Notes: a model not told the origin generated them from the letters alone. 64,000 nucleotides of DNA from Lysobacteraceae bacterium (GCA_003241895.1 QBLY01000004.1:102210-166209), one strand, 5' to 3'. Counted from the first letter of the stretch, positions 13,257 to 45,345 are shown. Numbers and translations: made by a program.

Positions 13257-14069
13257 ATGCCCGAACTGCCCGAAGTCGAAACCACCCGCCGCGGCTTGGC
13301 GCCCCACGTCGAAGGCCGCACGGTGACCGGGGTGGTGCTGCGGCGGCCCGACCTGCGCTGGCCGATTCCGCCCGAGGTGGGGGCGTTGCTGCCCGGCCAG
13401 CGCGTGCTGGGCGTGCGCCGGCGGGCGAAGTACCTGCTGCTGGACACCGCGCCGGGCAGCGCGCTGCTGCACCTGGGCATGTCCGGCATGCTGCGCGTAT
13501 TGCCGGCCGCCACCCCGGTGCAAACCCACGACCACGTGGACATCGCGCTCGATTCGGCCTGCGTGCTGCGCTTCACCGACCCGCGCCGCTTTGGCTGCCT
13601 GCTCTGGCAGCCCGCCGGGGAAACCCACGACCTGCTCCAGCACCTGGGCCCGGAGCCGCTGTCGGAGGACTTCGACGCGGAATATCTCTACCAGCGAAGC
13701 CGCGGCCGCAAGGCCCCCATCAAGGCCTTCCTGATGGACCAGGCCGTGGTGGTGGGCGTGGGCAACATCTACGCCGCCGAAAGCCTGTTCCGCGCCGGCA
13801 TCGCCCCGCGGCGCGCCGCCGGGTCGGTCAGCCGCGAGCGCTACGTCCGGCTGGTGGCGGCGGTGAAGACCATCCTGGCCCACGCCATCACCCGCGGCGG
13901 CACCACCCTGCGCGACTTCCTGAACCCCGACGGCGCGCCGGGCTATTTCGAACAGGAGCTGTTCGTCTACGGCCGCGAAGGCGAGCCCTGCAGGACCTGT
14001 GGCCGCACCCTCCGCGACGGCCGCATGGGCAACCGGGCCACCGCCTGGTGCGCCGGCTGCCAGCGGTGA
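13257..14069 (+). CDS. mutM: Formamidopyrimidine-DNA glycosylase
   Basis: [10 protein letters not shown]-terminus, HLGMSG, GVGNIYA, C-terminal Zn finger CRTC...CAGCQ. Confidence 0.97.
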
Positions 14070-20036: not shown

Positions 20037-22826
20037 ATGGAGCCCTTCATGTCGATCCGTTCGCTTGCCCCGCTGCTGGGCACCCTGCTGCTGACCTTTT
20101 CGCTGGCCGCGCCGGTGCGCGCGCAGCCTGCCGCGCCACCCAAGGGCGCGGTCGAAGTCGCGTCCGTCGAAGGCATCACCGAATACCGGCTTGAAAACGG
20201 CCTGCGCGTGCTGCTGTTCCCCGACGCCACCAAGCCCACGGTCACGGTGAACCTCACCTACCTGGTGGGTTCGCGCCACGAGAACTACGGCGAAACGGGC
20301 ATGGCCCACCTGCTTGAGCACCTGCTGTTCAAAGGCACGCCCGACAACGACGACATCCCCGGTGAAATGCGCCGTCGCGGCATCCGCTACAACGCCAGCA
20401 CCTGGGTGGACCGCACCAACTACTTCGGCAGCTTCGCCGCCGGCGAAGACAACCTCGACTGGCTGCTGTCGCTGGAAGCCGACCGCATGGTGAACTCGCA
20501 CGTGCGCCGCGCCGACCTCGACAGCGAGATGACGGTGGTCCGCAACGAGATGGAATCGGGCGAAACCAACCCGGTGCGCGTGCTGCTGCAGCGCATGTCG
20601 GCCACGGCCTACCTGTGGCACAACTACGGCAAGTCCACCATCGGCGCCCGCTCGGACGTGGAAAACATGCCGATCGAGCGGCTGCAGGCCTTCTACCGCA
20701 CGCACTACCGCCCCGACAACGCCACCCTGCTGGTGGCCGGCCGCATCGACCCGGCGCAGACGCTGGCCAAGGTGGTGGCCGCCTTCGGTCCGCTCAAGCG
20801 CCCGGCCGAGCCGGTGCAGGCCACCTACACGCAGGAACCCGTGCAGGACGGCGAACGCGAAGTGGTGGTGCGCCGCGTCGGCGACACGCGCCTGATCGGC
20901 CTGAACTACCACCTGCCGGCCGCAGCCCATCCCGACAGCGCGCCGCTGGAAGTGCTGGGCCAGGTGCTGGGCGACACGCCCGGCGGCCGCCTGCACAAGG
21001 CGCTGGTCGAACCCGGCCTGGTGACGTCGGTGAGCGCCAGCGCCTGGCAGCTGGCCGAACCCGGCACCATGCTGATGCTGGCCCAGCTGCCGCGCGACGG
21101 GGACGACGAAGCCGTCGCCGCCGAACTGATCAAGCAGGTGGAAACCGCCACCGCCACGCCCTTCACCGCCGATGAAGTGGCCAAGGCCAAGACCCAGCTG
21201 CTCAAGGACGCCGAGCTGCTGTTCAACGACGCCAACGCCACCGCCACGGCGCTGTCCGAGGCCATCGCCTCGGGCGACTGGCGCCTGTTCTTCCTGCACC
21301 GCGACCGCATCGAGGCGGTGACCGCCGACGACGTCATGCGCGTCGCCAAGGCCTACCTCAAGCCCAGCAACCGCACGCTGGCGCGCTTCATTCCCACCGA
21401 CGCGCCCGATCGCGCCGAAATCCCGGCCACGCCGGACGTGGCCGCGCTGGTGGCCAATTACAAGGGACGCGCGGCCGTGGCCGCGGGCGAGGCTTTCGAT
21501 CCCACGCCCGCGAACATCGACAGCCGCACCGTCGTGTCCAAGCTGGCCAACGGCACCGAACTGGCGCTGCTGGCCAAGCAAACGCGCGGCGACACGGTGT
21601 CGATCAGCATGGCGCTGCGCTTCGGCGGCCTGGACGACGTGATGGACCGCGAGGGGGCGGCCAGCCTTGCCGCGGCCATGCTTTCACGCGGAACGAAGTC
21701 GATGAGCCGCGAACAGATCAGCCGCCGCCTGGACGACCTGAAGGCCCGGTTGAACATCAACGGCTCCGCCCAGTCCGTGGCCGTGGGCGCCAGCACCACG
21801 CGCGAACACCTGCCCGAAGTGGTGGCCCTGATCGCGGAAATGCTCAAGACCCCGTCTTTCCCCGAGACCGAGTTCGAGCAGCTGCGCGGGCAGTTCATCA
21901 CCGGCATCGAATCACAGCGCAGCGAGCCGCAGTCGGTGGTGGGGCTCGCCAGCAGGCGTCACTTCGGCAAGCAGTGGCCCAAGGGCCACCCCTACTACGC
22001 CGCCACCGTCGAAGAGGCCTTGGGTGATCTCAGGCGCGTGACGCTTTCCGAACTGCGCACCTACCACGCGGCGTTCTATGGCGCGGGCAATGGCGACATC
22101 GCGGTGGTCGGTGATTTCGACCCGGCGCAGGTCGCGGCGCTGATGCAGCAGCACTTCGGCGACTGGACGTCGGCCAAGGCCTTCGAGCGCATCCCGATGC
22201 CGGTCGCCAACGCGCCGGTGGTGGTGCAGATGGACGAAACGCCGGACAAGGCCAATGCCGTCATCCTGCAGTTCGCCCAGTTCCCGGTGTCCGATTCGCA
22301 CCCCGACTACGCGGCGCTGGTGGTGGCCAACAACATCTTCGGCGGCGGCGGCATGAAGTCGCGCCTGGGCGATCGCGTACGCCAGACGGATGGCCTGAGC
22401 TACTCGGTCGGCTCGGGCTTCAACGCCGGCATCCAGGACGAAGCCGCCAGCCAGCAGCTGTTCGCCATCGCCGCGCCGGAGAACATCGCCAAGGTGAAGC
22501 AGGCCTTCGCCGAGGAAATGGCGCGCCTGGTGAAGGACGGCGTCACCGGGGCCGAACTCAAGGACGCGGTGGACGGCATCCTCAAGGGCCGGGTGCTGGG
22601 CCGCGCCGAGGACGGCGCCCTGGCCGGCCAGCTGCGCAGCAACCTCTACTACGACCGCACGCTGGCCTGGAGCGCCGAGCTCGAGGCGAAGATGGCGGCG
22701 CTGACCAAGGCCGACGTGGACGCGGCCATCCGCAGGCACTTCGGCACCGCCGGCTACTCGGTGTTCGCCGCCGGCGATTTCGCCAAGGTCGCCGCCGCAC
22801 AGCCCGAGGCCGCCACCACGCCCTGA
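20037..22826 (+). CDS. Exported M16 family zinc protease (pitrilysin/PqqL-like), about 925 aa
   Basis: HxxEH motif GMAHLLEHLLFKG, NASTWVDRTNY, four-domain length, signal peptide; start may be 20049. Confidence 0.92.
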   Translation: MEPFMSIRSLAPLLGTLLLTFSLAAPVRAQPAAPPKGAVEVASVEGITEYRLENGLRVLLFPDATKPTVTVNLTYLVGSRHENYGETGMAHLLEHLLFKGTPDNDDIPGEMRRRGIRYNASTWVDRTNYFGSFAAGEDNLDWLLSLEADRMVNSHVRRADLDSEMTVVRNEMESGETNPVRVLLQRMSATAYLWHNYGKSTIGARSDVENMPIERLQAFYRTHYRPDNATLLVAGRIDPAQTLAKVVAAFGPLKRPAEPVQATYTQEPVQDGEREVVVRRVGDTRLIGLNYHLPAAAHPDSAPLEVLGQVLGDTPGGRLHKALVEPGLVTSVSASAWQLAEPGTMLMLAQLPRDGDDEAVAAELIKQVETATATPFTADEVAKAKTQLLKDAELLFNDANATATALSEAIASGDWRLFFLHRDRIEAVTADDVMRVAKAYLKPSNRTLARFIPTDAPDRAEIPATPDVAALVANYKGRAAVAAGEAFDPTPANIDSRTVVSKLANGTELALLAKQTRGDTVSISMALRFGGLDDVMDREGAASLAAAMLSRGTKSMSREQISRRLDDLKARLNINGSAQSVAVGASTTREHLPEVVALIAEMLKTPSFPETEFEQLRGQFITGIESQRSEPQSVVGLASRRHFGKQWPKGHPYYAATVEEALGDLRRVTLSELRTYHAAFYGAGNGDIAVVGDFDPAQVAALMQQHFGDWTSAKAFERIPMPVANAPVVVQMDETPDKANAVILQFAQFPVSDSHPDYAALVVANNIFGGGGMKSRLGDRVRQTDGLSYSVGSGFNAGIQDEAASQQLFAIAAPENIAKVKQAFAEEMARLVKDGVTGAELKDAVDGILKGRVLGRAEDGALAGQLRSNLYYDRTLAWSAELEAKMAALTKADVDAAIRRHFGTAGYSVFAAGDFAKVAAAQPEAATTP

Positions 22827-34217: not shown

Positions 34218-34255
34218 TGCCCCCAGCAGCGCGAAGAACGGCATAAAGAACCGCA

Positions 34256-34345
34256 TAAAGAACGGGGTCAGGTTCACTTATCGGGGAAGCGCTCCGGCGG
34301 TTTGCCGTGACCGGTCCCGATAAGTGAACCTGACCCCGTTCTTTA
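34256..34345. repeat. Perfect 30-bp inverted repeat (REP/MITE-like), preceded by degenerate 12-bp tandem units at 34233-34268
   Basis: TAAAGAACGGGGTCAGGTTCACTTATCGGG (34256-34285) and its exact reverse complement (34316-34345), 30-nt spacer; the right arm contains the TAA stop of the convergent OYE gene. Confidence 0.92.
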
Positions 34346-35461
34346 CGCGGTGCCGCCGCTCTTCACCAGCAGCTTGGCGAACTGCCGCGGCTGCGAGCGC
34401 AGGTACTGCGGCGGCGCGCTGACCGACGCGCCCAGGTGCGCGGCCGCGTGCCAGGGCCAGCGCGGGTTGTAGAGCATGCCGCGCGCCAGCGCGACCATAT
34501 CCGCGTCGCCGGTGGCGACGATGGCCTCGGCGTGGTCGAAGTCGGTGATCATGCCCACTGCCACCACGGGGATGCCGACCGCCTGCTTCACCGCGCGCGC
34601 CAGCGGCACCTGGTAGCCCGGACCGACCGGGATGGCCTGCGCGGGATGCAGGCCGCCGCTGGAGACGTTGATGGCCGCGCAGCCGCGCGCCTCGAGCGCG
34701 TTCGAGAACGCCACCGTCTGTTCGATGTCCCAGCCGCCCGGCACCCAGTCGGTGCCCGACAGGCGCACGCTGACCGGGCGCTCGGCCGGGAAGGCGGCGC
34801 GCACGGCGTCGAACACTTCCAGCGGGAAGCGCATGCGGTTCTCGAGCGAGCCGCCGTACTCATCGTCGCGGTGGTTGGACAGCGGCGACAGGAATTCGTG
34901 CAGCAGGTAGCCGTGCGCGGCGTGGACCTGGATGGCGTCGATGCCCAGCCTCGCCGAGCGCTGCGCGGCGTTCGCGAAGGCGTCGCGCACCGCGTCCATG
35001 CCTTCGCGCGTCAGTGCGGTGGGCGCGTGGTCGGCATCGTTGAACGGCAGCGCCGAGGGCGCGACGGTTTGCCAGCCGTGGGCATGGTCCGGCGCAAATT
35101 GCTTGCCGCCCTGCCACGGCAGGTCGGTGGAGGCCTTGCGGCCGGCGTGCGCCAGCTGGATGGCGATGGGCATGGCCGACCAGCGACGGATGCCGTTGAG
35201 CACCGTAGCCATCGCCGCTTCCGTGGCGTCATCCCACAGGCCGACGTCGCCGTAGGAAATGCGGCCCTCGGGCAGCACGGCCGTGGCCTCGATGGTGAGC
35301 AGCGCCGCGCCCGACTGCGACAGCTGCCCCAGGTGGATCAGGTGCCAGTCGGTCATGCCTCCGTCCACGGCCGAGTACTGGCACATGGGCGCGATGACGA
35401 TGCGGTTGGCGAGCAGCAGGGAGCCGACGCTGATCGGCTCGAAAAGTTGGGGCGTGCTCAT
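34343..35461 (-). CDS. NADH:flavin oxidoreductase / old yellow enzyme (YqjM/NamA-like)
   Basis: [48 protein letters not shown]; ATGA-coupled to the LLM gene. Confidence 0.93.
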
Positions 35462-36450: not shown

Positions 36451-36741
36451 GGGCGCGCCACGGAGAGGTTCCCCTTGAGATGGGGTTCAGGACGGGCCTG
36501 TACAAGACGCCCGGAGCGCATGGATAGCCACAGTCCTTGCCAACCGATGCTTCTGACGCGACGCGCGTTTCGATCGTGCTTGATGAAACACAAGGCGCGA
36601 GGTCCATCCAAGGTCAGGCGGGTGAAAATCGTTGGTGCGGACGCGCGAATCCGCAGCTTCGCACAGCCGCGAAACGCGCCCTTGATTTCCATAATCGGCG
36701 CGTGCGATTGTCGGCCAGGAACGGACTGGAGAGACGTCATA

Positions 36742-38490
36742 ATGAAGACGGCGGGTTGGCGCAGGTATGCGCCGCACGCGGCGGGCTCGATCGTGCTGGC
36801 GTTCCTTGTCGCATGCACCGGAGCGCCCCGGCATTCTGATGCACCCAGCCACGTCGGCGCCGCGAAGGGCGAGGCCATGGTGGCAGCGGCCGATCCGCTG
36901 GCCGTGGACGCCGGACTGGAAATGCTGCGCGCGGGCGGCAGCGCCATTGATGCGGCGATCGCGGTCGAGCTGACGCTGGGATTGGTGGAGCCGGAATCGT
37001 CGGGGCTGGGGGGCGGCGGTTTCCTGATCCACTTCACTGCGAACACCGAGGCGATGGACGCCTACGATGGCCGCGAGTGGGCGCCTGCGGGCGCTGGCGC
37101 GGACCTGTTCATGCAGGATGGAACGGCGCTGCCGTTTGAGCTGGCGCAGGCCAGCGGCAAATCCATCGGCACGCCTGCGCTGATTCCGATGTTGAAGCTG
37201 GCGCACCAGCAGCACGGAAAGCTGCCGTGGGCCAGGCTGTTCGAGCCGGCGATCAGGCTGGCGGAAAATGGCTTCGTGGTCGGGCCGCGCCTGAGCCGAA
37301 GCCTTGCCGGCAACAAGGCCATCTTCGAGGCCGACCAACAGGCGCGGGCGATCTATCTCGACGCTTCGGGCACGCCTTGGCCGCAGGGGCACCTGCTGAA
37401 GAACCCCGAATACGCCCGCACGCTGCGCGCCATTGCATCCGACGGGCCGCGCGCGCTCACACAAGGCGCCATTGCGGACAGCATCGTGGCTGCAGCCCAG
37501 CGCCAGCCGCGCGCGGGAACACTGACGTTGGCGGACCTGCAGGCCTATCAGCCGCGGCGGCTTGATCCGCTCTGCGCGCCGTACCGGGTCTATCGCGTCT
37601 GCACGATGCCTTCGCCCAGTTCGGCCAACGCGATGCTGTCGATCCTGGGTCTTTACGAACGTGCGCGACCCCAACCGGAGGGTCCGCGCAATGTGCAGGA
37701 CTGGGCGGCGTATGTTTGGGCGAGCCGTCTTTCCTATGTCGACCGCGATCACTACATGGCGGATGACCGCTTCGTGCCGGCGCCGACCCGAGAGCTGATC
37801 GCCCCGGCCTATCTCGACAGCCGCGCGAAGCTGATCGACCTGGCACAGGGCTCCGCCACCGTGCCCGTTGGCGCGCCTGCGGGAGAGGCCTTGCGCAATC
37901 GCTGGGGCAGCGAGGCGATGCAGGAACATGGCACCACGCATCTTTCCGTCGTGGACCACGCCGGCAATGCCGTGTCGCTGACGGCGACCATTGAATCCGA
38001 GTATGGCTCGCATCGCATGGCGGGCGGCTTCTGGCTCAACAACCAGTTGACGGATTTCTCGCTTGAGCCGGTGATCGATGGAAAGCCGGTGGCCAATGCG
38101 GTCGCGCCGCGCAAGGCACCGCGTTCGTCCATGTCGCCAGCGATCATCACCGACAGGGACGGCAGGCTGGTGATGGTGGTCGGCTCGATGGGCGGCAGCA
38201 CGATCATCGCTTCGGTCTCGCGCACGATCATCGGAGTGCTGGACTGGAAGCAGACGCCGCAGGAAGCGGTCGGCACGGCGGCTGTCTTCGCGCGCACGCC
38301 CGACATTTCGTTCGAAACGTCACGCCTGCCGGAGGCAACGGCCGATGCGCTGCGCGCACTGGGCTGGCGCATGGTGCCCGAGGACCTTCACAGCGGCACG
38401 CATGTGATCCAGGTGACGCCGCAAGGGCTGGTCGGCGGCGCCGATCCGCGCGAAGAGGGCAAGGCCGTGGCGCTGCCGGCGGCACGTTAG
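36742..38490 (+). CDS. Gamma-glutamyltransferase family protein, probable lipoprotein
   Basis: Lipobox-like LVAC, EPESSGLGGG, DGRE, autocleavage Thr in GTTHLSVVD, LNNQLTDFS, PRSSMSP. Confidence 0.92.
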   Translation: MKTAGWRRYAPHAAGSIVLAFLVACTGAPRHSDAPSHVGAAKGEAMVAAADPLAVDAGLEMLRAGGSAIDAAIAVELTLGLVEPESSGLGGGGFLIHFTANTEAMDAYDGREWAPAGAGADLFMQDGTALPFELAQASGKSIGTPALIPMLKLAHQQHGKLPWARLFEPAIRLAENGFVVGPRLSRSLAGNKAIFEADQQARAIYLDASGTPWPQGHLLKNPEYARTLRAIASDGPRALTQGAIADSIVAAAQRQPRAGTLTLADLQAYQPRRLDPLCAPYRVYRVCTMPSPSSANAMLSILGLYERARPQPEGPRNVQDWAAYVWASRLSYVDRDHYMADDRFVPAPTRELIAPAYLDSRAKLIDLAQGSATVPVGAPAGEALRNRWGSEAMQEHGTTHLSVVDHAGNAVSLTATIESEYGSHRMAGGFWLNNQLTDFSLEPVIDGKPVANAVAPRKAPRSSMSPAIITDRDGRLVMVVGSMGGSTIIASVSRTIIGVLDWKQTPQEAVGTAAVFARTPDISFETSRLPEATADALRALGWRMVPEDLHSGTHVIQVTPQGLVGGADPREEGKAVALPAAR

Positions 38491-38527
38491 GGTTCGGAGC
38501 CAGCAGTCGGACAACGCCCGCACGCGC

Positions 38528-38947
38528 CTACCCCCGAAACGTCTGCAGGTGCACGCTGGTTTCGCTGGCGCTGACGCCTTCGATGCCGCGGATGCGCTCA
38601 AGCGTGGCCGACAGCTCGGCCAGGCTGGCCACCCGAAGTTCCGCCAGCAGGTCCCAGCGGCCATTGGTGTCGTACAGCGCGGCGATGCCGGGCTCGCCCA
38701 GCAGCGCACGGATGACATGGTGCTGGTTGCCCTCCACCGCGATGGCGGTCCAGGCGCGGATTTCATCGGGCGTGGCGTCGGGGCGCAGGCGCAGGGTGTA
38801 GCCGGCGATCACGCCGTCGCGCTGCAGCCGGGCCATGCGGTTGGTGACGGTGCCGCGCGACACCCCCAAGGCCTTGGCCAGGTCGGCCACGGCGGCGCGG
38901 GCGTCGTGGCGGAGTTTGGCGATCAGGCGGTGGTCCAGGTCGTCCAT
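38528..38947 (-). CDS. Lrp/AsnC family transcriptional regulator
   Basis: MDDLDHRLIAKLRHDAR, HTH region, GRWDLLAEL; divergent from the ornithine cyclodeaminase gene. Confidence 0.93.
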   Translation of the reverse strand: MDDLDHRLIAKLRHDARAAVADLAKALGVSRGTVTNRMARLQRDGVIAGYTLRLRPDATPDEIRAWTAIAVEGNQHHVIRALLGEPGIAALYDTNGRWDLLAELRVASLAELSATLERIRGIEGVSASETSVHLQTFRG

Positions 38948-39079
38948 TTGATCATTCCGGCAGCCGAGTCTGACTATTTAGCAGCTATTTGCTTATTAAG
39001 TGACATCTTTGCCGTTTCGCACTGCCGCCTGTCCCGGGAAAATAGGGTTTACCGAAACCCCATCTTCCGGAGACCCACC

Positions 39080-40126
39080 ATGGCCATGACCCAGCTGACC
39101 ACTCAAGACCTGACCCGCATCGTCGCCGCCCACGGCCTGCCGACCCTGCTTGGCCGCCTGGTGGACTACCTGGAGGCCGACTTCCGCCGCTGGCCGGACT
39201 TCGACAAGAGCGCGCGCACCGCCGCCCATTCCGACGTGGGCGTGATCGAGCTGATGCCGATCTCCGACGCCAGGGACTTCAGCTTCAAGTACGTCAACGG
39301 CCACCCGGGCAATACCCGCCTGGGCCTGAGCACGGTGGTTGCCTTCGGCGTGCTGGCCGACATGGAAACCGGCATGCCCAGCCTGATCAGCGAACTCACC
39401 CTGACCACCGCCCTGCGCACCGCCGCCACCTCGGTGATGGCGGCCAAGCTGCTGGCGCGCAAGGACGCCAAGACCATGGCCCTGATCGGCAACGGCGCCC
39501 AGAGCGAATTCCAGGCGCTGGCCTTCCACCACCTGCTGGGCATCACCGAGGTGCGCGTGTACGACGTCGACCCGGCCGCCACCGACAAGCTGGTGCGCAA
39601 CCTGGCCGCGGCCGCGCCCGCCCTGCGCGTGGTGCGCAGCGCCGGCGTCGCCCAGGCCGTGCGCGGCGCCGACATCGTCACCACCGTCACCGCCGACAAG
39701 GCCAACGCCGACATCCTCACGCCCGAGATGATCGAGCCGGGCATGCACATCAACGGCGTCGGCGGCGACTGCCCCGGCAAGACCGAACTGGCCACCGGCG
39801 TGGTGGACATGGCGTCGGTGTTCGTGGAGTTCGAGCCGCAGTCGCGCATCGAGGGCGAGCTGCAGCAGATGCCCGCCGGTTTCCCGGTGACCGAACTGTG
39901 GCGCGTGCTGACCGTGCAGGCCGCCGGCCGCCGCAACGCGGCCGAAGTCACGCTGTTCGATTCGGTGGGCTTCGCGTTGGAGGACTATTCGGCGCTGCGC
40001 CTGGTGCGCGACTGCGCCAAGGAGCTGGGCCTGGGCCATGAGTCGGGGCTGGTCCCCAACCTGCGTGATCCGAAGGATTTGTTTGGTGAGTTGGCGGCGG
40101 GGCGCGGGATCCAGAAAGCCGCCTGA
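39080..40126 (+). CDS. ocd: Ornithine cyclodeaminase
   Basis: GVIELMP, FKYVNGHPGN, LTTALRTAATS, IGNGAQSEFQ, GGDCPGKTEL, FDSVGFALED. Confidence 0.92.
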   Translation: MAMTQLTTQDLTRIVAAHGLPTLLGRLVDYLEADFRRWPDFDKSARTAAHSDVGVIELMPISDARDFSFKYVNGHPGNTRLGLSTVVAFGVLADMETGMPSLISELTLTTALRTAATSVMAAKLLARKDAKTMALIGNGAQSEFQALAFHHLLGITEVRVYDVDPAATDKLVRNLAAAAPALRVVRSAGVAQAVRGADIVTTVTADKANADILTPEMIEPGMHINGVGGDCPGKTELATGVVDMASVFVEFEPQSRIEGELQQMPAGFPVTELWRVLTVQAAGRRNAAEVTLFDSVGFALEDYSALRLVRDCAKELGLGHESGLVPNLRDPKDLFGELAAGRGIQKAA

Positions 40127-40227
40127 AGAGGCTGCCCCAAGGGGCGGGTCGAATGGCCCGCCTGGCTGTGTGCGAGTTCCGAGGATATTGCCCTACCGTG
40201 CCCGTTTAGGTTGCTCAGCCCGCTGGT

Positions 40228-40265
40228 GTTGACCGGCTCGAATCGGCCAGGAGCGGCCGTTCAAC
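40228..40265 (-). repeat. Bulged hairpin repeat, copy overlapping attC R'
   Basis: Minus strand GTTGAACGGCCGCTCCTGGCCGATTCGAGCCGGTCAAC; 9/10 terminal stem; core GCCGCTCCTGGCCG shared with 43523-43538 and 36712-36726. Confidence 0.65.
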
Positions 40266-40315
40266 GCCTTGGGCTAAGCCCCGCCGTAGGCGTCACCTTG
40301 AATCAGTTGTTAGGC
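40259..40315 (-). mobile_element. Integron attC site (57 bp)
   Basis: Minus strand GCCTAAC-AACTG-ATTCAAGG-TGACGCCTACGGCGGG-GCTTAGC-CCAAGGC-GTTGAAC; R'' fits RYYYAAC, R' fits GTTRRRY, L boxes and central hairpin present; the TAA stop of the upstream gene lies inside R''. Confidence 0.8.
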
Positions 40316-40900
40316 ACGAGCGGGTTCGGCAACACGCCTGAACTCCCGCATTGCCATAACCACGAGCGCGATGCCTGACACCCCAGTTCCAACCAGCGCC
40401 CAGCTCGGCGATTCGCCTCGCACCAGGGCGAGAACTGCCCCGCCGCCAAGAAGCGTAGCCCACGGCATGCCGACAACGGCCAGACCGGCGCCAATGTACT
40501 GTCGCTGACGGAAGAGGTGAACCAGCGCTTGGGCTATCAGAACCACAGCGAGGCTAGCCACCGAGATGTTTATTACGGCCAAGCCCTGCGAAGCGGGGAG
40601 GCCAGCCGGGCGCCCGGATTCACCAGTAACTGCCAACGTGATGATGGCGATGCCAAGAAGCAGCATGCCGGGCCATGTCCAGACGGGGTGGGCGGTGCTG
40701 CAAGGCTGCTCCTCCTGAAGGTCGATTAGCTTGGCCCCGTAGGTGGCCGCGAGGCATACGGCTGTGCCCAGAGATGCAACTCCTTCTGCCTCAACACGCT
40801 GAACAGTGCGGAGGCTCAAGCCGGATGCGACGGCGAGTTGATCTTGAGACCACCCTCGCTCGGTGCGCAGGCGACGTACGGTAGAGGACGAGATCTTCAT
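40310..40900 (-). CDS. XRE-family HTH regulator with C-terminal multi-TM domain (cassette-borne)
   Basis: VRRLRTERGWSQDQLAVASGLSLRTVQRVE HTH, followed by about four hydrophobic helices; GGAG precedes ATG 40900 (alternative ATG 40912). Confidence 0.85.
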   Translation of the reverse strand: MKISSSTVRRLRTERGWSQDQLAVASGLSLRTVQRVEAEGVASLGTAVCLAATYGAKLIDLQEEQPCSTAHPVWTWPGMLLLGIAIITLAVTGESGRPAGLPASQGLAVINISVASLAVVLIAQALVHLFRQRQYIGAGLAVVGMPWATLLGGGAVLALVRGESPSWALVGTGVSGIALVVMAMREFRRVAEPARA

Positions 40901-41233
40901 TTCATGCTCCATGGCAATGCTCCCGAGGCTGTTGGACCCTTTGGAGCGTGCGACCTAGGCCAATCTATCGTTACGACAAACTCCTGCCATCACCCGCCAA
41001 TTGGCCGCCAATCAGTTCTACCGGAACCAGACTAACGAACATACGGGCATCAACGTCCGGCTTTACATCTGAACAGTGCGACGCCTTTTTCCCCGCAACG
41101 CGTTGATTTTTAGCGAGCTTAGGCCGGCCTTGTCCGGCAATCAATCCCATAGAACCCCAGACGGCCTCAGCCTGTCGAGATCAGCCGTCTTACGGCCAAT
41201 TCCAATGGGAAACCATGGCGATCAACTGGATCG

Positions 41234-41267
41234 CGACCGGCTGCTTTGGGTCGAAAGGGCCTGGTCG
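41234..41267 (+). repeat. Bulged hairpin repeat, copy downstream of the PAP2 gene
   Basis: CGACCGGCTGCTTTGGGTCGAAAGGGCCTGGTCG; first 20 nt match 43441-43460 at 19/20. Confidence 0.75.
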
Positions 41268-41360
41268 GCTGTCAGCCCATGGCGATGGTTCAACGTCGAG
41301 ATGAGGGGGCTCCGAAATTGTTCGGAGGGTGCCACAAGCGTAGTTCTTGGGACCGCTGAT

Positions 41361-42356
41361 TTACCGGCGCGCGGGGTCGAGCGCAGACGCCGGAGGATAC
41401 AGTCCCAGAGCCTGCGCAAGCCACACCGCGCCCAGGATGGATGCCGGGAAGCCCAAAGCTGCAAACAAGTAGCTGACGCCATGGCCGTCAGGCCAGCCTC
41501 CGAGCTCGTGCAGCTGCCCAAGCAGCCACCCCGTGCCCGTGACGAACGCCACCGCGGCCACGACGCGCAGTGCGCGCCGGGCAGGCGGGGCGGCATCCAG
41601 CGGCCATCCACGCCATTCGAACCAGCCGATACAGGCCAACGCGCCTGCGACGCTCCCGGCCTGATAAGGGTCAAGGGGAGCCACCATCAAGGACAGCCCG
41701 CAGAGCGCCATCGCCACCATGGCGGCGAAGAACCAAGCCCGACCTGCGCGGACCCCTCCGGCCTGGGTCATGCGCATCAGCAAGACTGCCGCGCCGGCCG
41801 CGGCGGCGCCTGCAGCCAGTCCTCCCAGCACATCGGCAAGGAAATGCCGCCCCAGGTACAGGCGCGACAGGGCGATCAACAGCGGCCAGGCCAACAGGAG
41901 CCAAGCCCAGCGCCGTCGCTGCAGCGCGAACAGGCCTATCAGTGCGAAGGCCCAGACACTCGCACCCGCCACATGACCGCTGAGGAAACCGTAATCGTGA
42001 TCACCGGTGCCGCGTGCGGCGGCAATGCCGGCCTCCGACGGCAGTCCCCAGAACGTCTTCGCGGCGCCGTCGGCGACCAGATAATTACCTTCACGACCCT
42101 TGTCCAGAACCCTGGCGTCCACCTCGCTGGGACGCGGCAGCGCGAAGCCCTGCTTGACCGTGTCTGTGACCATGCCCGCCAGCACCAGCGCCAGCATGAC
42201 GCCCAGCATGGGCCGCAACCGGAACCCGAAGGCCAGAACCAGCAGCACCATGGAATAGACCCACGAGCGGCCGGCTTCCGACACCACCTGCATCCAAGCC
42301 AAGACCCACGGCGAATCGAACTGCTGCAGCCAAAGGTTGGTGTCCACTTCAAACAT
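41361..42356 (-). CDS. PAP2-family membrane phosphatase
   Basis: K...RP (KQGFALPRP), GFLSGH, SRLYLGRHFLADVLGG motifs; multiple TM helices; GGAG RBS. Confidence 0.85.
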   Translation of the reverse strand: MFEVDTNLWLQQFDSPWVLAWMQVVSEAGRSWVYSMVLLVLAFGFRLRPMLGVMLALVLAGMVTDTVKQGFALPRPSEVDARVLDKGREGNYLVADGAAKTFWGLPSEAGIAAARGTGDHDYGFLSGHVAGASVWAFALIGLFALQRRRWAWLLLAWPLLIALSRLYLGRHFLADVLGGLAAGAAAAGAAVLLMRMTQAGGVRAGRAWFFAAMVAMALCGLSLMVAPLDPYQAGSVAGALACIGWFEWRGWPLDAAPPARRALRVVAAVAFVTGTGWLLGQLHELGGWPDGHGVSYLFAALGFPASILGAVWLAQALGLYPPASALDPARR

Positions 42357-42419
42357 GGGGCACTCCGCGACGTTCAAGGGCGCACAGTGTCCCCGTCGGG
42401 TGCCACTTTGCCACGCGCA

Positions 42420-42448
42420 CAGTGACAGGGCGATGGCCCGCAGTGACA
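42420..42448 (+). promoter_or_regulatory. Putative LytTR operator: CAGTGACA direct repeat with 21-bp period
   Basis: CAGTGACA at 42420-42427 and 42441-42448 in the PAP2/LytTR divergent intergenic region. Confidence 0.55.
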
Positions 42449-42492
42449 AGCGGCGACCTCGGCGGGACGAGAGGCCGGGCTAGAATCCCGCG

Positions 42493-43374
42493 ATGGGATT
42501 GAGCGACGCAACGACACCGCCCGCGCAAGCGGATTTCTGGAGCCGCCACCTGCCATGGCGTCGCCCCATTGAACTTGCGGGCTGGCTGTTGGCCTTCGGT
42601 GGAGGCGCACTGGCCAACGTCATGCTTCGCATGATCGATGCCCGGCGTGACGGTGGCCAAGCCGAAACCTGGAAGTACGTGACTTGGGAGGGCAGTTCCG
42701 CCTTGGCCTCGCTGGCACTACTTCCGCTGTTGTTGTGGCTGTGCAACCGATGGCCGCTGCACCTGGAAAACTGGCTCCGGAGATTGCCGCTCTACGTGGC
42801 CGCAAGCCTGGCTTGGTCTGTGCTGCATGTGGTCGCCATGGTAGGAGTCCGCATGCTGGTGTACCCCACCCAGGGCGACACCTACGAATTCGACTGGATC
42901 ACGGGACTTCCGTACGAGTACCTCAAGGATGCCAGGACCTTCGGACTGGTCGTGATGTTGACCCACGGCTATCACTGGCTCTGGCGGCGTTTGCAGGGAG
43001 AGATCCATCTGCTGGATGCGCCGGACCACGGCATCCCGCCGCAGGCGCGCGGCGAGCCGGAACGCTTCCTGGTGCGCAAACTGGGCCGCGAGTTCCTGGT
43101 CAGCACCCACGATATCGAGTGGCTGCAGGCTTCCGGCAACTACGTCAACCTCCGCGTCGCCGGACGCGACTACCCGCTCCGTATCACGATGGCGGCGATC
43201 GAAGCTCGGCTGCAGGTCGCTGGTTTCGTCCGTGTCCACCGCAGCTACATCGTGAACCTGGACTGCCTGGCATCCATCGAACCGACCGACAGCGGCGATG
43301 CCTTGTTGCGTATGAAATCCGGCGACTTCATACCATGCAGCCGTCGCTACCGAGACCGGCTTCGCGGCAGTTAG
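42493..43374 (+). CDS. Membrane-anchored LytTR-family DNA-binding regulator
   Basis: About four N-terminal TM helices; C-terminal IEWLQASGNYVNL...FVRVHRSYIVN...IPCSRRY LytTR domain; no receiver domain. Confidence 0.9.
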   Translation: MGLSDATTPPAQADFWSRHLPWRRPIELAGWLLAFGGGALANVMLRMIDARRDGGQAETWKYVTWEGSSALASLALLPLLLWLCNRWPLHLENWLRRLPLYVAASLAWSVLHVVAMVGVRMLVYPTQGDTYEFDWITGLPYEYLKDARTFGLVVMLTHGYHWLWRRLQGEIHLLDAPDHGIPPQARGEPERFLVRKLGREFLVSTHDIEWLQASGNYVNLRVAGRDYPLRITMAAIEARLQVAGFVRVHRSYIVNLDCLASIEPTDSGDALLRMKSGDFIPCSRRYRDRLRGS

Positions 43375-43440
43375 AGAATGAAATCCGTTCGAAAGTGCCT
43401 GCCACGAACCGTTCCGAGTCCGAGCTGGGGTGACCGCCAT

Positions 43441-43540
43441 CGACCGGCCGCTTTGGGTCGGCAAGCGCCTGTCGCATCTATTTCCTCGGGGTCGAGAAGC
43501 GCCTGTCGCAATTGGCTCCTCGCGGCCAGGAGCGGACGGA
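43441..43540. repeat. Cluster of three hairpin-repeat units (two direct with 34-bp period, third inverted)
   Basis: AAGCGCCTGTCGCA at 43463-43476 and 43497-43510, each preceded by GGGTCG; inverted unit core CGGCCAGGAGCGGAC at 43523-43537. Confidence 0.75.
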
Positions 43541-43610
43541 CACCGGATTGGAAGCCTGACTGCGATTCTTCTCCAGCACGGAAACCCTGCATGTGTGATC
43601 CAGCGGCCCC

Positions 43611-43643
43611 GGCGGGTCGGTTTCGAAAGAAAACCGACCCGCC
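43611..43643. repeat. 13-bp perfect stem hairpin (terminator-like or REP-like)
   Basis: GGCGGGTCGGTTT-CGAAAGA-AAACCGACCCGCC; no clear U-tract; a related GGCGGGTC hairpin lies at 40143-40162. Confidence 0.7.
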
Positions 43644-43682
43644 GCCCCCCGGACTTGAGGAGATGGCTTGGGCGCGGTGGGG

Positions 43683-44141
43683 CTACTCCTTCCCCGTCAT
43701 CGGCACGGGGTCATAATCCGGGGTGTCGAGCGCATTCAGCGGTGCCGTCACCTTGTAAGGCACGCCGATCTGGCGGTTAACGGCAAAGAAAGTCAGCGTT
43801 TGATCCAGGATCGACGGGACGGTGATCAGGTCAAGTTCCGGAAGGCCGAAACCGCGCAGCCCATATGCGGCGTCGGGTGAAACGATCCCCGGTGCCTCGG
43901 CCGCGTGCCGCGCGCGATACCATTCGGAAAATCGGGCGGGATCCTCAATCACGGTATAGGTTTGCTGCTGCGCAAGGTGATTGACGGCCTGGGCACACAG
44001 CAACGCCTGGTCGGGCGCGCAAATCCAAGAGGCAAGCCCCATCAATTCGGGTGCTGATTGCACTGGCGTCCCGTCCACATAGATCGCGGGGGCCCCATCA
44101 TCGGCGTAGCCCAACGAGATTTCAGGAAGATCGATTGTCAT
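43683..44141 (-). CDS. Hypothetical protein, 152 aa
   Basis: RBS AAGGAG, protein-like composition (MTIDLPEISLGYADDGAPAIYVDG...), atypical codon usage; no family recognised. Confidence 0.7.
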   Translation of the reverse strand: MTIDLPEISLGYADDGAPAIYVDGTPVQSAPELMGLASWICAPDQALLCAQAVNHLAQQQTYTVIEDPARFSEWYRARHAAEAPGIVSPDAAYGLRGFGLPELDLITVPSILDQTLTFFAVNRQIGVPYKVTAPLNALDTPDYDPVPMTGKE

Positions 44142-44362
44142 CGTTCGCAACTCCTTGTCGTGTTCTGGAAGGCGGCTTTCGTTGGGTGATATCCATGCCC
44201 TTGTCGACCCAAGTCTTGCGCGCCATTGGGGATAAATAACCCGGTGGATCCGTCCGCCACCACATGACGGCTGCACAGTGTTCCGCCCGGCCTCATCGCC
44301 GCCTGTCGGCGTTTGTCAGCGCCAGCAGCTGAGTCGTTTCAAGTTTGCGATGTCCGCGGTCT

Positions 44363-45287
44363 TCAAAGCGGCTGCGTGCCCTCGCCCAGGATTTCGAGAT
44401 ACGCCTGGTAGACGTAAACGCGATGGCGCCGCTGGCCGGTCAGCTCGTTCACGATCCCCATTTCCGCCAGGGTGGATATCGCAGAACGAATGGTGGGAGC
44501 GCTCATCGCCACATGCGGACGAACCTGGGCCACGCCCGACACGACCCGTCGCGCCAACTGGTCGAAGACCAGACCGACGCTGCCGGCGCGCGCGCCCAGT
44601 CCGCCGATGCGGGCACGGTCGGCGGCCAACAGCGCGAGGAGGCGCTGGGCAGTGTCCACCGCTTGCGTGGCCGTTTCGGCCACACCGTCCAGGAAAAAGC
44701 CCAGCCAGCCCTCCCAGTCGCCTTGGGTGCGCACGGCGTTGAGGCGCTCGTAGTACTCCGCGCGGTGTTGCTTGAAGTGCAGGCTCAGGTAAAGGCCGGG
44801 TTCGCGCAGCACGCCCTCCACGCAAAGGATCAGCGCGATCAGCAGGCGGCCCAGGCGACCATTGCCGTCCTTGAAGGGATGGATGGTTTCGAACTGCACG
44901 TGGGCCAATGCCGCCTTGATCAAGGGGGGCGCTTGATCGGATGGCAGGTGCAGATAGTTTTCCAAAGCCCCCAGCAGCGCCGCCAGCGCATCCGGCGGCG
45001 GCGGCACGAAGTGCGCGGTCGCTGGAGTCCTGCCGCCCACCCACACTTGTCCAGAACGGACTTCACCCGGCTGGCTGGAAGCGCCGCGGCCGCCCTGCAG
45101 CAGCAGGGCGTGCATCTCGCGAATCAGGCGCAGGGACAGCGGGAAATCGTCTTGGCGCAGCCGCCTGAAGCCATGGTTGAGTGCCGCAAGGTAGTTCGAG
45201 ACTTCCTCCACGTCGTCCACGGGCACGCCGGGCGCCTCGTTCAGTTCGTACAGCAGCAGATCGGCCAGGGACGACTGCGTTCCTTCA
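44363..45287 (-). pseudogene. Fic-family protein, 5'-truncated
   Basis: Intact Fic motif HPFKDGNGRLGR and C-terminal HTH-like tail, but homology starts abruptly at EGTQSSLADLL. The usual preceding ...EA..SS.IEG segment and N-domain are absent, and the called GTG start lies inside a repeat. Confidence 0.75.
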
Positions 45288-45306
45288 AAAGGATTGACTG
45301 GGCGGG

Positions 45307-45345
45307 CCCTCACCCCGGCCCTCTCCCGCTTTGCGGGAGAGGGAG
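45307..45345. repeat. CCCTCACCCC..CCCTCTCCC-type REP-like palindrome
   Basis: CCCTCACCCCGGCCCTCTCCCGC-TTT-GCGGGAGAGGG with an 11-bp perfect stem, immediately downstream of the oleA stop. Confidence 0.8.

What the first reader, a model, noticed from the sequence alone, without database searches (positions are those of the whole stretch)
36712..43540. Family of about 34-38 bp bulged-hairpin repeats marking the borders of accessory gene modules
Seen: a core of the form G[GT]C[CT]G[CT]T[CT][CT][GT]GG[CT]CG occurs at 36712-36726 (-, just upstream of ggt), 40228-40265 (-), 41234-41267 (+), 43441-43476 (+), a partial direct unit at 43477-43510 and an inverted one at 43511-43540. The best copies fold as imperfect stems with a bulge around a conserved TTGGGTCG or CCTGGCCG loop. 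All copies are intergenic and I noticed none in the housekeeping parts of the window. The two + copies enclose exactly the PAP2-LytTR divergon. Inference: these may be recombination or target sites of an unrecognised cassette-like mobilisation system, for example ssDNA hairpin sites for a Tyr recombinase or HUH enzyme acting in trans. I cannot name a described family for them.
Basis: partly seen in the sequence, partly recalled or inferred. Interest (0 to 1): 0.65.

Follow-up and report, generated by a model that had tools for sequence, protein, structure and literature searches.

The report
Hairpin repeats bounding integron-linked gene modules
The repeats are a real, apparently unnamed family of short DNA hairpins that sit at the edges of horizontally acquired gene modules and are physically joined to this bacterium's integron gene cassettes, so they probably act as recombination or landing sites, but no experiment or enzyme link shows this yet.

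Summary
Five of the six listed copies belong to a repeat family with about 31 copies in this 3.1-Mb genome; the copy at 36712 is doubtful. All copies lie in about ten accessory islands.

- **Two arm types.** T1 is GAAC-GGCCGC-TCCTGGCCGA. T2 is GACC-GGCCGC-TTCGGGTCGG.
- **Bracketing rule.** Nine of nine modules carry one T2 and one T1, with the 5' ends facing the cargo.
- **Junction palindrome P.** Where modules abut, T1 and T2 form a 55-110-nt imperfect palindrome. It has a conserved outer stem, conserved mismatches and a variable, covarying inner stem, so its layout resembles attC.
- **Distribution.** P occurs in at least 120 metagenome contigs but in 0 of 400 sampled Pseudomonadota genomes.
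- **No named family.** It matched no Rfam family, no plasmid sequence and not my attC model.

The repeats are tied to a known system, the integron:
- The genome has two IntI genes.
- Four different upstream sequences, two of them clear attC sites, join T1 at the same nucleotide (G|TTGAAC).
- One intI-attI-cassette platform is itself a T2...T1 module.
- A relative carries a canonical attC array at the window's locus, and another relative has that site empty.
- A 627-bp module is duplicated, with breakpoints in the hairpin loops.

No dedicated recombinase was found. A passive role as REP- or MITE-like elements remains a serious rival.

The parts
36712..36726 (-). Doubtful half-site (GTCCGTTCCTGGCCG), 16 nt upstream of the ggt start codon
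   Evidence: It matches the core only. It has no wider homologue in the genome and no hairpin. ggt itself is absent at this locus from five relatives.
40204..40267 (-). T1 hairpin element: arm at 40244-40262, outer heptad GTTGAAC at 40259-40265, plus a conserved 3' extension (GAGCCGGTCAACACCAGCGGGC..CAACCTAAAC)
   Evidence: It is 90-93% identical to C5:46484-46547, which lies directly after the last cassette of the C5 integron, and to C52:14411-14465. It folds as a bulged hairpin.
40259..40315 (-). Canonical Xanthomonadales-type attC of the XRE cassette; its R' box GTTGAAC is also the outer edge of the T1 arm
   Evidence: It aligns with the genome's canonical attC sites. It is a weak hit of my attC covariance model (23.1 bits, E 0.1). 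R'' GCCTAAC contains the gene's stop codon.
40310..40912 (-). Cassette gene: HTH_3/XRE-family protein, 200 aa
   Evidence: Pfam HTH_3 at 6.8e-7. It lies between a T1(-) arm and a T2(+) arm.
41053..41253 (+). 201-bp repeat that ends in the T2 arm
   Evidence: 96% identical to C2:30345-30544.
41234..41267 (+). T2 bulged hairpin (arm 41235-41253; GACCGGCTGCTTTGGGTCG + AAAGGGCCTGGTC)
   Evidence: -8.8 kcal/mol, z -1.6.
41361..43374 (.). Cargo module: PAP2 (41361-42356, -) and LytTR regulator (42493-43374, +)
   Evidence: Pfam. It is flanked by T2 arms at 41235 and 43442.
43438..43545 (+). Composite junction palindrome P: T2 hairpin (arm 43442-43460), 34-nt partial direct duplicate (43477-43510), inverted T1 hairpin (arm 43523-43541, - strand)
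   Evidence: Positions 43489-43537 are 100% identical to the P element beside intI at C5:43710-43758.
40127..45317 (.). Accessory insertion zone between the OCD stop and the oleA stop that contains all good copies
   Evidence: Absent from G014, where 116 bp join OCD to oleA. Replaced by a hydrolase gene plus four canonical attC cassettes in G022, and by other DNA in G016.

Best explanation
**What it is.** The repeats are folded-DNA boundary elements of gene cassettes in an integron-linked system.
- Each unit is a roughly 30-nt bulged hairpin whose conserved 5' arm comes in two types, T1 and T2.
- Every module carries one of each, with the 5' ends facing the cargo.
- Where two modules meet, T1 and T2 form a 55-110-nt imperfect palindrome (P), which occupies the position that attC holds in a classical cassette array.

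**Proposed mechanism.**
1. A tyrosine recombinase exchanges strands at these sites. The only candidates found are the genome's own integron integrases.
2. Canonical attC cassettes are inserted at the GTT on the outer edge of T1. This would be attI- or attG-like use of the site.
3. Modules bounded by T2...T1 are moved as units, with the crossover in or next to the conserved 'loop' sequence.

**Shown.**
- The family exists and has a consistent grammar.
- It sits at gain/loss breakpoints.
- It is joined at the same nucleotide to canonical attC sites.
- An integron platform lies inside one module.
- A module is duplicated, with breakpoints in the hairpin loops.
- The inner stem of P covaries.

**Inferred.**
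- That recombination is site-specific.
- That IntI is the enzyme.
- That single-stranded folding matters.
For: **Family and grammar.**
- About 31 copies lie in about 10 islands of lower GC3, 50-78% against about 90% in the flanks.
- Nine of nine bracketed modules carry one T2 and one T1 with the 5' ends inward. Four T1/T2 junctions form P.

**Link to integrons.**
- The genome has two IntI genes, scoring 469 and 380 bits against TIGR02249.
- The module C5:43753-46489 is intI + attI + four canonical cassettes, and T1 starts at the R' box after the last cassette.
- Four different upstream sequences are joined to T1 at the same point...GCG|TTGAAC-GRCYGCTCC. These are window 40265, C52:22481, C5:46488 and C11:54598. 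Two of them are clear attC sites.
- Three of the four junctions fit the published hot-spot consensus for attG sites, GWT plus CRGM at +6 to +9.
- The same attC-T1/P adjacency is seen in Stenotrophomonas acidaminiphila at an array end, in metagenome contigs L205 and L225, and in relative G022 with a T1-like hairpin 22 nt after the last attC.

**Breakpoints.**
- There are empty or alternative alleles at two loci.
- The duplicate C22:70097-70723 = C52:40461-41087 is identical from the loop of the left hairpin to the loop of the right one, while the outer stem halves differ.

**Structure.**
- On 34 metagenome copies the nested long-hairpin model has 12 pairs with changes on both sides. Its covariation score is 0.160 against a shuffled mean of 0.110, with 0 of 500 shuffles as high. 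Seven of the eight inner-stem pairs change on both sides.
- The T2-sense strand of one P folds 5.5 kcal/mol better than its complement. That is a strand asymmetry of the kind known for attC.

**Distribution.** The elements travel with mobile DNA: 1-4 copies per genome in scattered beta- and gammaproteobacteria, at least 120 metagenome contigs and 0 of 400 sampled Pseudomonadota genomes.
Against: - No IntI or other recombinase lies within the roughly 230 loci from other genomes and metagenomes that carry T1 or P.
- My attC covariance model does not hit any T/P element, but it is narrow, being built only from Xanthomonadales-type sites.
- The defining attC triplets AAC...GTT are present in only part of the copies. 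Many have ACC or AAT.
- A crude strict R''/R' scan found no enrichment of canonical attC near metagenome P elements (0.045 against 0.044 per kb).
- Array ends show a single arm plus a 'tail' repeat, not the full hybrid sites that a simple P x P crossover predicts.
- Only one duplicated module supports mobility.
- Hairpin stabilities are ordinary.
- The repeats are mixed with other repeat motifs ('tails', a 201-bp unit), as in passive mosaic elements.
Confidence: 0.42

Rival explanations
1. The repeats are passive mosaic elements of the REP/BIME/REPIN or MITE kind. They ride in horizontally transferred DNA and are common at module borders only because repeats are where illegitimate or short-homology recombination joins DNA segments. 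They have no dedicated enzyme. Any function would be structural, such as transcript ends or protein binding.
For: - They combine in a mosaic with other repeats: a 110-230-nt structured 'tail', a 201-bp unit and an X motif.
- The tail is multi-copy in several genomes of the genus.
- Inverted doublets that form a long hairpin are the REPIN layout.
- No recombinase is nearby in about 230 loci. Neighbours are ordinary genes such as ABC_sub_bind, methyltransferases and kinases.
- P usually lies shortly after an open reading frame on the same strand, at a median of 84 nt.
- Folding z-scores are ordinary.
Against: - Copy number is very low outside this genome (0-4), yet the sequence is conserved across classes. 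Classical REPs are the opposite.
- None lies in a core intergenic region of this genome.
- The strict T2/T1 pairing holds in 9 of 9 modules.
- Four different upstream sequences, two of them clear attC sites, are fused to T1 at one nucleotide.
- The RAYT-like gene has no such repeats at its flanks, and the REP-typical 5' GTAG is absent.
Confidence: 0.3
2. The arms are terminal inverted repeats of non-autonomous, cargo-carrying transposons. These would be moved in trans by a transposase that this genome lacks or has lost, for example an IS91/ISCR-type rolling-circle enzyme that uses GTTC/GAAC.
For: - Modules end in inverted arms; 12 of 16 positions are identical in the duplicated DUF6197 module.
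- The arms start with GAAC, which reads GTTC on the other strand.
- The genome's only Y2_Tnp (IS91-family) remnant stops about 20 nt before a T1 arm.
- In G022 two inverted tail-and-arm halves form a roughly 500-bp palindromic element at the site where this genome holds a 9-kb island between the arms.
Against: - There is no target-site duplication.
- The IS91 fragment is decayed and truncated by the junction, not bounded by it.
- No IS110 genes are present.
- No transposase clusters near T1 or P in other genomes.
- DDE families were not searched one by one.
Confidence: 0.12
3. The elements act as RNA. They would be 3'-end stem-loops that terminate or stabilise the transcripts of acquired genes, or a small structured RNA.
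For: - They usually lie downstream of co-oriented open reading frames.
- The stems covary.
- G-T pairs are common on one strand.
Against: - No Rfam family matches, even at E of 1 or less.
- There is no T-run after the hairpins.
- The arms are found on both sides of modules regardless of gene direction, for example around the PAP2-LytTR divergon and around intI.
- The nucleotide-precise fusions to attC and the breakpoints in the loops are DNA-level features.
Confidence: 0.1

Closest known systems
Integron attC sites and attC clusters without an integrase (CALIN; Cury et al. 2016, PMC4889954; Xanthomonadales-type attC, Ghaly et al. 2021, PMC8352920)
   Same: - Imperfect palindromes of 55-110 nt between co-oriented cassette genes.
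- Conserved outer parts, conserved mismatches and a variable, covarying central stem.
- One strand folds better than the other.
- They occur in arrays beside an intI and in arrays without an integrase.
- They are interleaved with true attC sites.
   Different: - The conserved sequence is different: GAAYGNCCGCT-CCTGGCCG...CGACCCR-AAGCGGNCRTTC.
- AAC/GTT core triplets are present in only some copies, and there is no unpaired 5-nt spacer.
- They are not detected by my attC model.
- Each module keeps one arm at each end, instead of a whole site at its 3' end.
attG / secondary sites of integron integrases (Loot et al., bioRxiv 10.1101/2022.09.11.507474) and attI
   Same: - Canonical attC cassettes are joined at a G|TT on the T1 edge.
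- Three of four junctions carry CGGC at +6 to +9, which fits GWT...CRGM.
- T1 follows the last cassette of an integron array, where the ancestral right half of attI is expected.
   Different: - attG sites are described as ubiquitous short duplex motifs without a conserved hairpin.
- Here a conserved 20-nt arm and hairpin lie to the right of the crossover.
- That same element is used repeatedly.
REP / BIME / REPIN elements with RAYT transposases
   Same: - Short GC-rich imperfect palindromes.
- Inverted doublets that form long hairpins.
- Mosaic combination with other motifs.
- An intergenic position after genes.
   Different: - Low copy number and cross-class distribution.
- Restricted to accessory DNA.
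- No GTAG.
- The genome's RAYT-like gene is not flanked by them.
pdif modules of Acinetobacter plasmids (XerC/D sites in alternating orientation around accessory genes; from my own knowledge)
   Same: Accessory modules are bracketed by inversely oriented recombination-site-like repeats, each with two inverted half-sites around a conserved spacer.
   Different: The sequence is unrelated to dif. No Xer link was tested here. The elements are chromosomal and lie beside integrons.

Membership tests
Integron attC | Inverse core sites R'' RYYYAAC and R' GTTRRRY at the two ends | tested here: not met
   Most arms read CTCGACC, GGATGAC or, in metagenomes, GAATGTC. AAC...GTT occurs only in a subset, for example C22:67856-67921 with CTTCAAC...GTTCGAG.
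Integron attC | Imperfect palindrome of about 55-140 nt with a variable central stem-loop | tested here: met
   P spans 36-65 nt between the anchors plus outer stems, and is up to 108 nt in the window. Seven of the eight inner-stem pairs change on both sides.
Integron attC | Detected by an attC covariance model | tested here: not met
   Model R1, built from 13 Xanthomonadales-type attC sites, finds 17 canonical sites in the genome but no T/P element at E of 1 or less. The model is narrow, and the IntegronFinder model was not available.
Integron attC | Strand asymmetry and extrahelical bases that mark the recombined strand | tested here: inconclusive
   The T1 and T2 middles differ at conserved positions. 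One strand of C22 P folds at -15.0 kcal/mol and the other at -9.5. Other copies show little difference.
Integron attC | Recombined by IntI | not testable with these tools
   There is only circumstantial evidence: two IntI genes and attC-T1 junctions.
attG/attI-like IntI target | G|WT at the crossover, with CRGM at +6 to +9 in hot spots | tested here: met
   G|TTGAACGGC is found in the window, C52 and C11. C5 has G|TTGAACGAC, which lacks the G at +8.
REP/REPIN-RAYT | Cognate RAYT gene flanked by the repeats, and a conserved 5' GTAG | tested here: not met
   The Y1_Tnp hit at C1:58994-59266 has no T-like flanks. The arms begin with GAAC or GACC.
REP/REPIN-RAYT | High-copy, lineage-specific intergenic repeat | tested here: not met
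   Background counts in 40 relatives, 1-4 copies in 16 carrier genomes and 0 of 400 sampled genomes.
MITE / TIR transposon | Terminal inverted repeats plus a target-site duplication and a cognate transposase | tested here: inconclusive
   Inverted arms are present, but no duplication is seen. IS110 is absent and IS91 is represented only by a decayed fragment. DDE families were not searched.
Rfam RNA families | Match to a curated covariance model | tested here: not met
   No relevant hit at E of 1 or less in the window or in seven loci that carry copies.

The most novel reading that the evidence does not exclude
T1/T2 hairpins and their junction palindrome P are the recombination sites of a widespread cassette system that has not been described. 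It would be either a second substrate class of integron integrases or the sites of another, trans-acting recombinase. This system would build integrase-less cassette arrays in chromosomes, carry defence genes, and move a whole integron platform (intI-attI-cassettes) as one of its modules.
Probability: 0.2. Interest if true: 0.8.

Novelty: new variant of a known kind. Interest (0 to 1): 0.55.

Why it matters
If these hairpins are true recombination sites, three things would follow:
- They would explain how integron cassettes and other accessory modules become established outside integrons, as solitary attC sites and integrase-less arrays. Here the modules include SIR2, Mrr-like and CBASS-like defence genes.
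- They would explain how an integron platform itself might be relocated.
- They would add a conserved site, easy to search for, to annotate cassette borders in soil and water bacteria. That includes the Xanthomonadales, which are thought to be a source of clinical resistance cassettes.

If they are only passive repeats, the finding is still a useful annotation of an unnamed repeat family, but an ordinary one.

Tried and rejected
- **Known RNA family:** no Rfam match.
- **Plasmid-borne element:** only the canonical attC part of a C52 copy matches plasmid integrons; the arm and tail do not.
- **Genus-wide REP:** rejected, because relatives show background counts.
- **High-copy REP in carrier genomes:** rejected.
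- **RAYT-mobilised REPIN:** the RAYT-like gene lacks these flanks.
- **IS110/IS1111 targeting or bridge-RNA ends:** there is no DEDD transposase in the genome.
- **Coding sequence:** copies differ by indels that are not multiples of three, and the flanks vary. The Streptomyces and other coding hits of the 20-mer are chance matches.
- **Canonical attC:** not hit by model R1.
- **My two home-made attC finders** were too insensitive to measure attC-P association in metagenomes. The 'no enrichment' result is therefore weak.
- **Recurrent neighbour gene in other genomes:** only common families came up. tblastn with both IntI proteins against all fetched loci found nothing.
- **The DUF6197 module in 400 genomes of the order:** no close copy.
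- **Exact-protein look-ups of the XRE and LytTR proteins** returned only short contigs that carry the same sequence and end near the repeats.


Full report
**1. Is it there?**

The window is C44:102210-166209 of a 3.10-Mb, 68% GC genome in 53 contigs. That pattern was fitted to those copies, so I also searched the whole genome.

- The core gives 25 hits. About 22 of them share flanks and cluster in C2, C5 (two places), C11, C19, C22, C44, C50 and C52.
- A 19-mer search that allowed mismatches brought the family to about 31 copies.
- Forty relatives and the backwards control show only background.
- The copy at 36712 shares only the core. It has no other homologue and does not fold, so I treat it as doubtful.
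- The other copies are as described, including the partial direct unit at 43477-43510 and the inverted unit at 43511-43540.
- Gene calls around them are supported by Pfam: ggt, Lrp/AsnC, OCD, XRE-HTH, PAP2, LytTR, Fic and oleA.
- Single hairpins fold only modestly better than shuffles (z about -1.5 to -2.1), and the 111-nt block does not.

**2. Anatomy**

There are two arm types:
- T1 is (T)TGAAC-GGCCGC-TCCTGGCCGA.
- T2 is CTCGACC-GGCCGC-TTCGGGTCGG.

Each arm is followed by a partly complementary closing half, which gives a bulged hairpin.

*Grammar.* I mapped arms against open reading frames in all clusters, and a consistent grammar appeared.
- Each gene module has one T2 and one T1, with the 5' ends facing the cargo. 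This holds in nine of nine cases. One is the window's XRE cassette, between T1(-) at 40244 and T2(+) at 41235.
- Where modules abut, T1 and T2 face each other and form an imperfect palindrome that I call P. Examples are C5:43706/43753, C5:91114/91154, C22:67860/67899 and window 43442/43523.
- Module genes have GC3 of 50-78%, against about 90% in flanking core genes.

*Tails.* At array ends, a single arm is followed outward by a 110-230-nt structured 'tail' repeat.

**3. The integron connection**

The genome has two integron integrases.

*The C5 integron.*
- intI lies at C5:43813-44751(-). It has an attI with GTTAGGC and an array of canonical, aadA-like attC sites to its right.
- Directly after the last cassette comes GCGTTGAAC-GACCGCTCCTGGCCGA, which is a T1 arm.
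- Directly after the intI stop codon comes a P element.
- The whole platform is therefore one T2...T1 module.

*The C31 integron.* It has a long canonical array that continues at the end of contig C5. It has no T elements.

*Ectopic attC sites.*
- A covariance model built from 13 canonical sites finds 17 attC sites in the genome.
- Two of these are ectopic: window 40259-40315 (weak, 23 bits) and C52:22422-22481. Both abut a T1 arm.
- The model finds none of the T/P elements.
- In four places, four different upstream sequences are joined to T1 at the same nucleotide, G|TTGAAC. Two of these upstream sequences are clear attC sites. One is the end of the C5 array. One follows a decayed IS91-family gene.
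- Three of the four junctions fit the hot-spot consensus reported for genomic IntI targets, GWT with CRGM at +6 to +9.

*Other genomes.* The same adjacency occurs elsewhere:
- at the end of an array in Stenotrophomonas acidaminiphila;
- in metagenome contigs L205 and L225;
- in relative G022.

**4. Breakpoints**

*The window locus.* Relatives have these states between OCD and oleA:
- G014: 116 bp, with no repeat.
- G022: a hydrolase gene plus four canonical attC cassettes, then a T1-like hairpin.
- G016: 4.1 kb of other DNA.
- This genome: 5.2 kb (40127-45317).

ggt is also absent from this locus in five relatives.

*The C52 locus.* A 9-kb island sits exactly between a T2(-) arm at 13478 and a T1(+) arm at 22478, each followed outward by a tail.
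- G013 has a 43-bp gap at this locus.
- G022 has two inverted tails with degenerate back-to-back arms and no cargo.

*The duplicated module.* A 627-bp module with one DUF6197 gene is present twice at 100% identity, at C22:70097-70723 and C52:40461-41087. Identity starts at the loop of the left hairpin and ends after the loop of the right one, while the outer stem halves differ. This is the only direct sign of movement, and it places the exchange in or beside the conserved 'loop'.

**5. Wider distribution and structure**

*Distribution.*
- The T1 20-mer occurs 1-4 times per genome in scattered beta- and gammaproteobacteria.
- It is found in 0 of 400 sampled Pseudomonadota genomes.
- The metagenome consensus is gaatGTCCGCT-CCTGGCCGA-AAGCGGAC-(variable)-GTCCGCTT-wCGACCCr-AAGCGGACattc.

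*Structure.* I compared two models on 34 equal-length copies.
- The nested long-hairpin model has a conserved outer stem, a mismatched middle formed by the two 'loop' motifs, and a variable inner stem. It has 12 pairs with changes on both sides and a covariation score of 0.160 (shuffled mean 0.110; 0 of 500 shuffles as high).
- The model of two local hairpins has 4 such pairs and a score of 0.092.
- Part of each stem was fixed by the search pattern, so only the free columns count.
- The T2-sense strand of one P folds 5.5 kcal/mol better than its complement.

The layout is therefore like attC, but the conserved sequence is not, and AAC/GTT is present in only some copies.

**6. Search for an enzyme**

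- No tyrosine recombinase or transposase recurs next to T1 or P in about 230 foreign loci. Recurrent neighbours are ordinary gene families.
- In this genome, IS110-family genes are absent.
- The RAYT-like gene has no T flanks.
- The only IS91-family sequence is a decayed fragment, cut off about 20 nt before a T1 arm.
- The two IntI proteins are therefore the only candidates found, and the case for them is circumstantial.

**7. Verdict**

The repeats are real, they mark module borders, and they are tied to integron cassettes. I favour the reading that they are cassette-boundary recombination or landing sites used in integron-type exchange (0.42). The rivals are:
- passive REP/MITE-like mosaic elements that merely collect at recombination joints (0.30);
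- the ends of non-autonomous transposons (0.12);
- RNA-level stem-loops (0.10).

I know of no described family that fits. Two literature searches found none.

Noticed in passing
G000 C5:37555-48208 (locus L010): A defence-type island built of T-bounded modules around an integron. In order: an SseB-like gene; a 1169-aa SIR2_2+DUF4020 protein; a 391-aa Mrr_cat-like nuclease; intI + attI + four cassettes, the first with a glyoxalase/bleomycin-resistance fold; then a CBASS-like pair of Cap15 receptor and SMODS cyclase.
   Followed up: partly
G000 C11:54309-54578 (locus L017:2310-2579): A decayed IS91-family (Y2_Tnp) transposase fragment with a TGA stop and frameshifts. Homology stops about 20 nt before the T1 arm at C11:54599.
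   Followed up: partly
G000 C52:13101-13478 and 22497-22724; relatives L279, L280, L281, L276: A 110-230-nt, strongly folding 'tail' repeat (GCGTGCGC...GCGCACGACATGGG ... CACACACAGGG-hairpin-CCCTGTGTGTG ... CACCGCAGCAAGGTCAA). It is multi-copy in several genomes of the genus. In G022, two inverted copies form a roughly 500-bp palindromic element. No Rfam match.
   Followed up: partly
window 36742-38490: The ggt gene is itself accessory. It is absent at this locus from five relatives, and G022 carries a peptidase-like gene in its place.
   Followed up: partly
window 34250-34351: A 36-nt inverted repeat, 97% complementary, with a 30-nt spacer, between convergent genes. It gives only a spurious miRNA hit in Rfam. 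It is unrelated in sequence to the T family.
   Followed up: no
G000 C31:1-1684 and C5:109700-117956: The second integron (intI at C31:743-1684) has its first attC at C31:77-136. Its array very probably continues on the end of contig C5, where at least 12 canonical attC sites lie on the minus strand. This implies that the two contigs are adjacent.
   Followed up: partly
locus L145 (G022:C77:26200-27550): A same-genus relative has an integrase-less array of four canonical attC cassettes at exactly the OCD-oleA site where this window has its insertion. The site is therefore a recurrent cassette hot spot in the genus.
   Followed up: partly
locus L205 (metagenome contig Ga0123337_10035769): A 3.6-kb contig that is a cassette array. 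attC-like sites and P elements alternate on one strand, and it includes a short ORF-less segment that consists of little more than P between two attC-like sites.
   Followed up: partly
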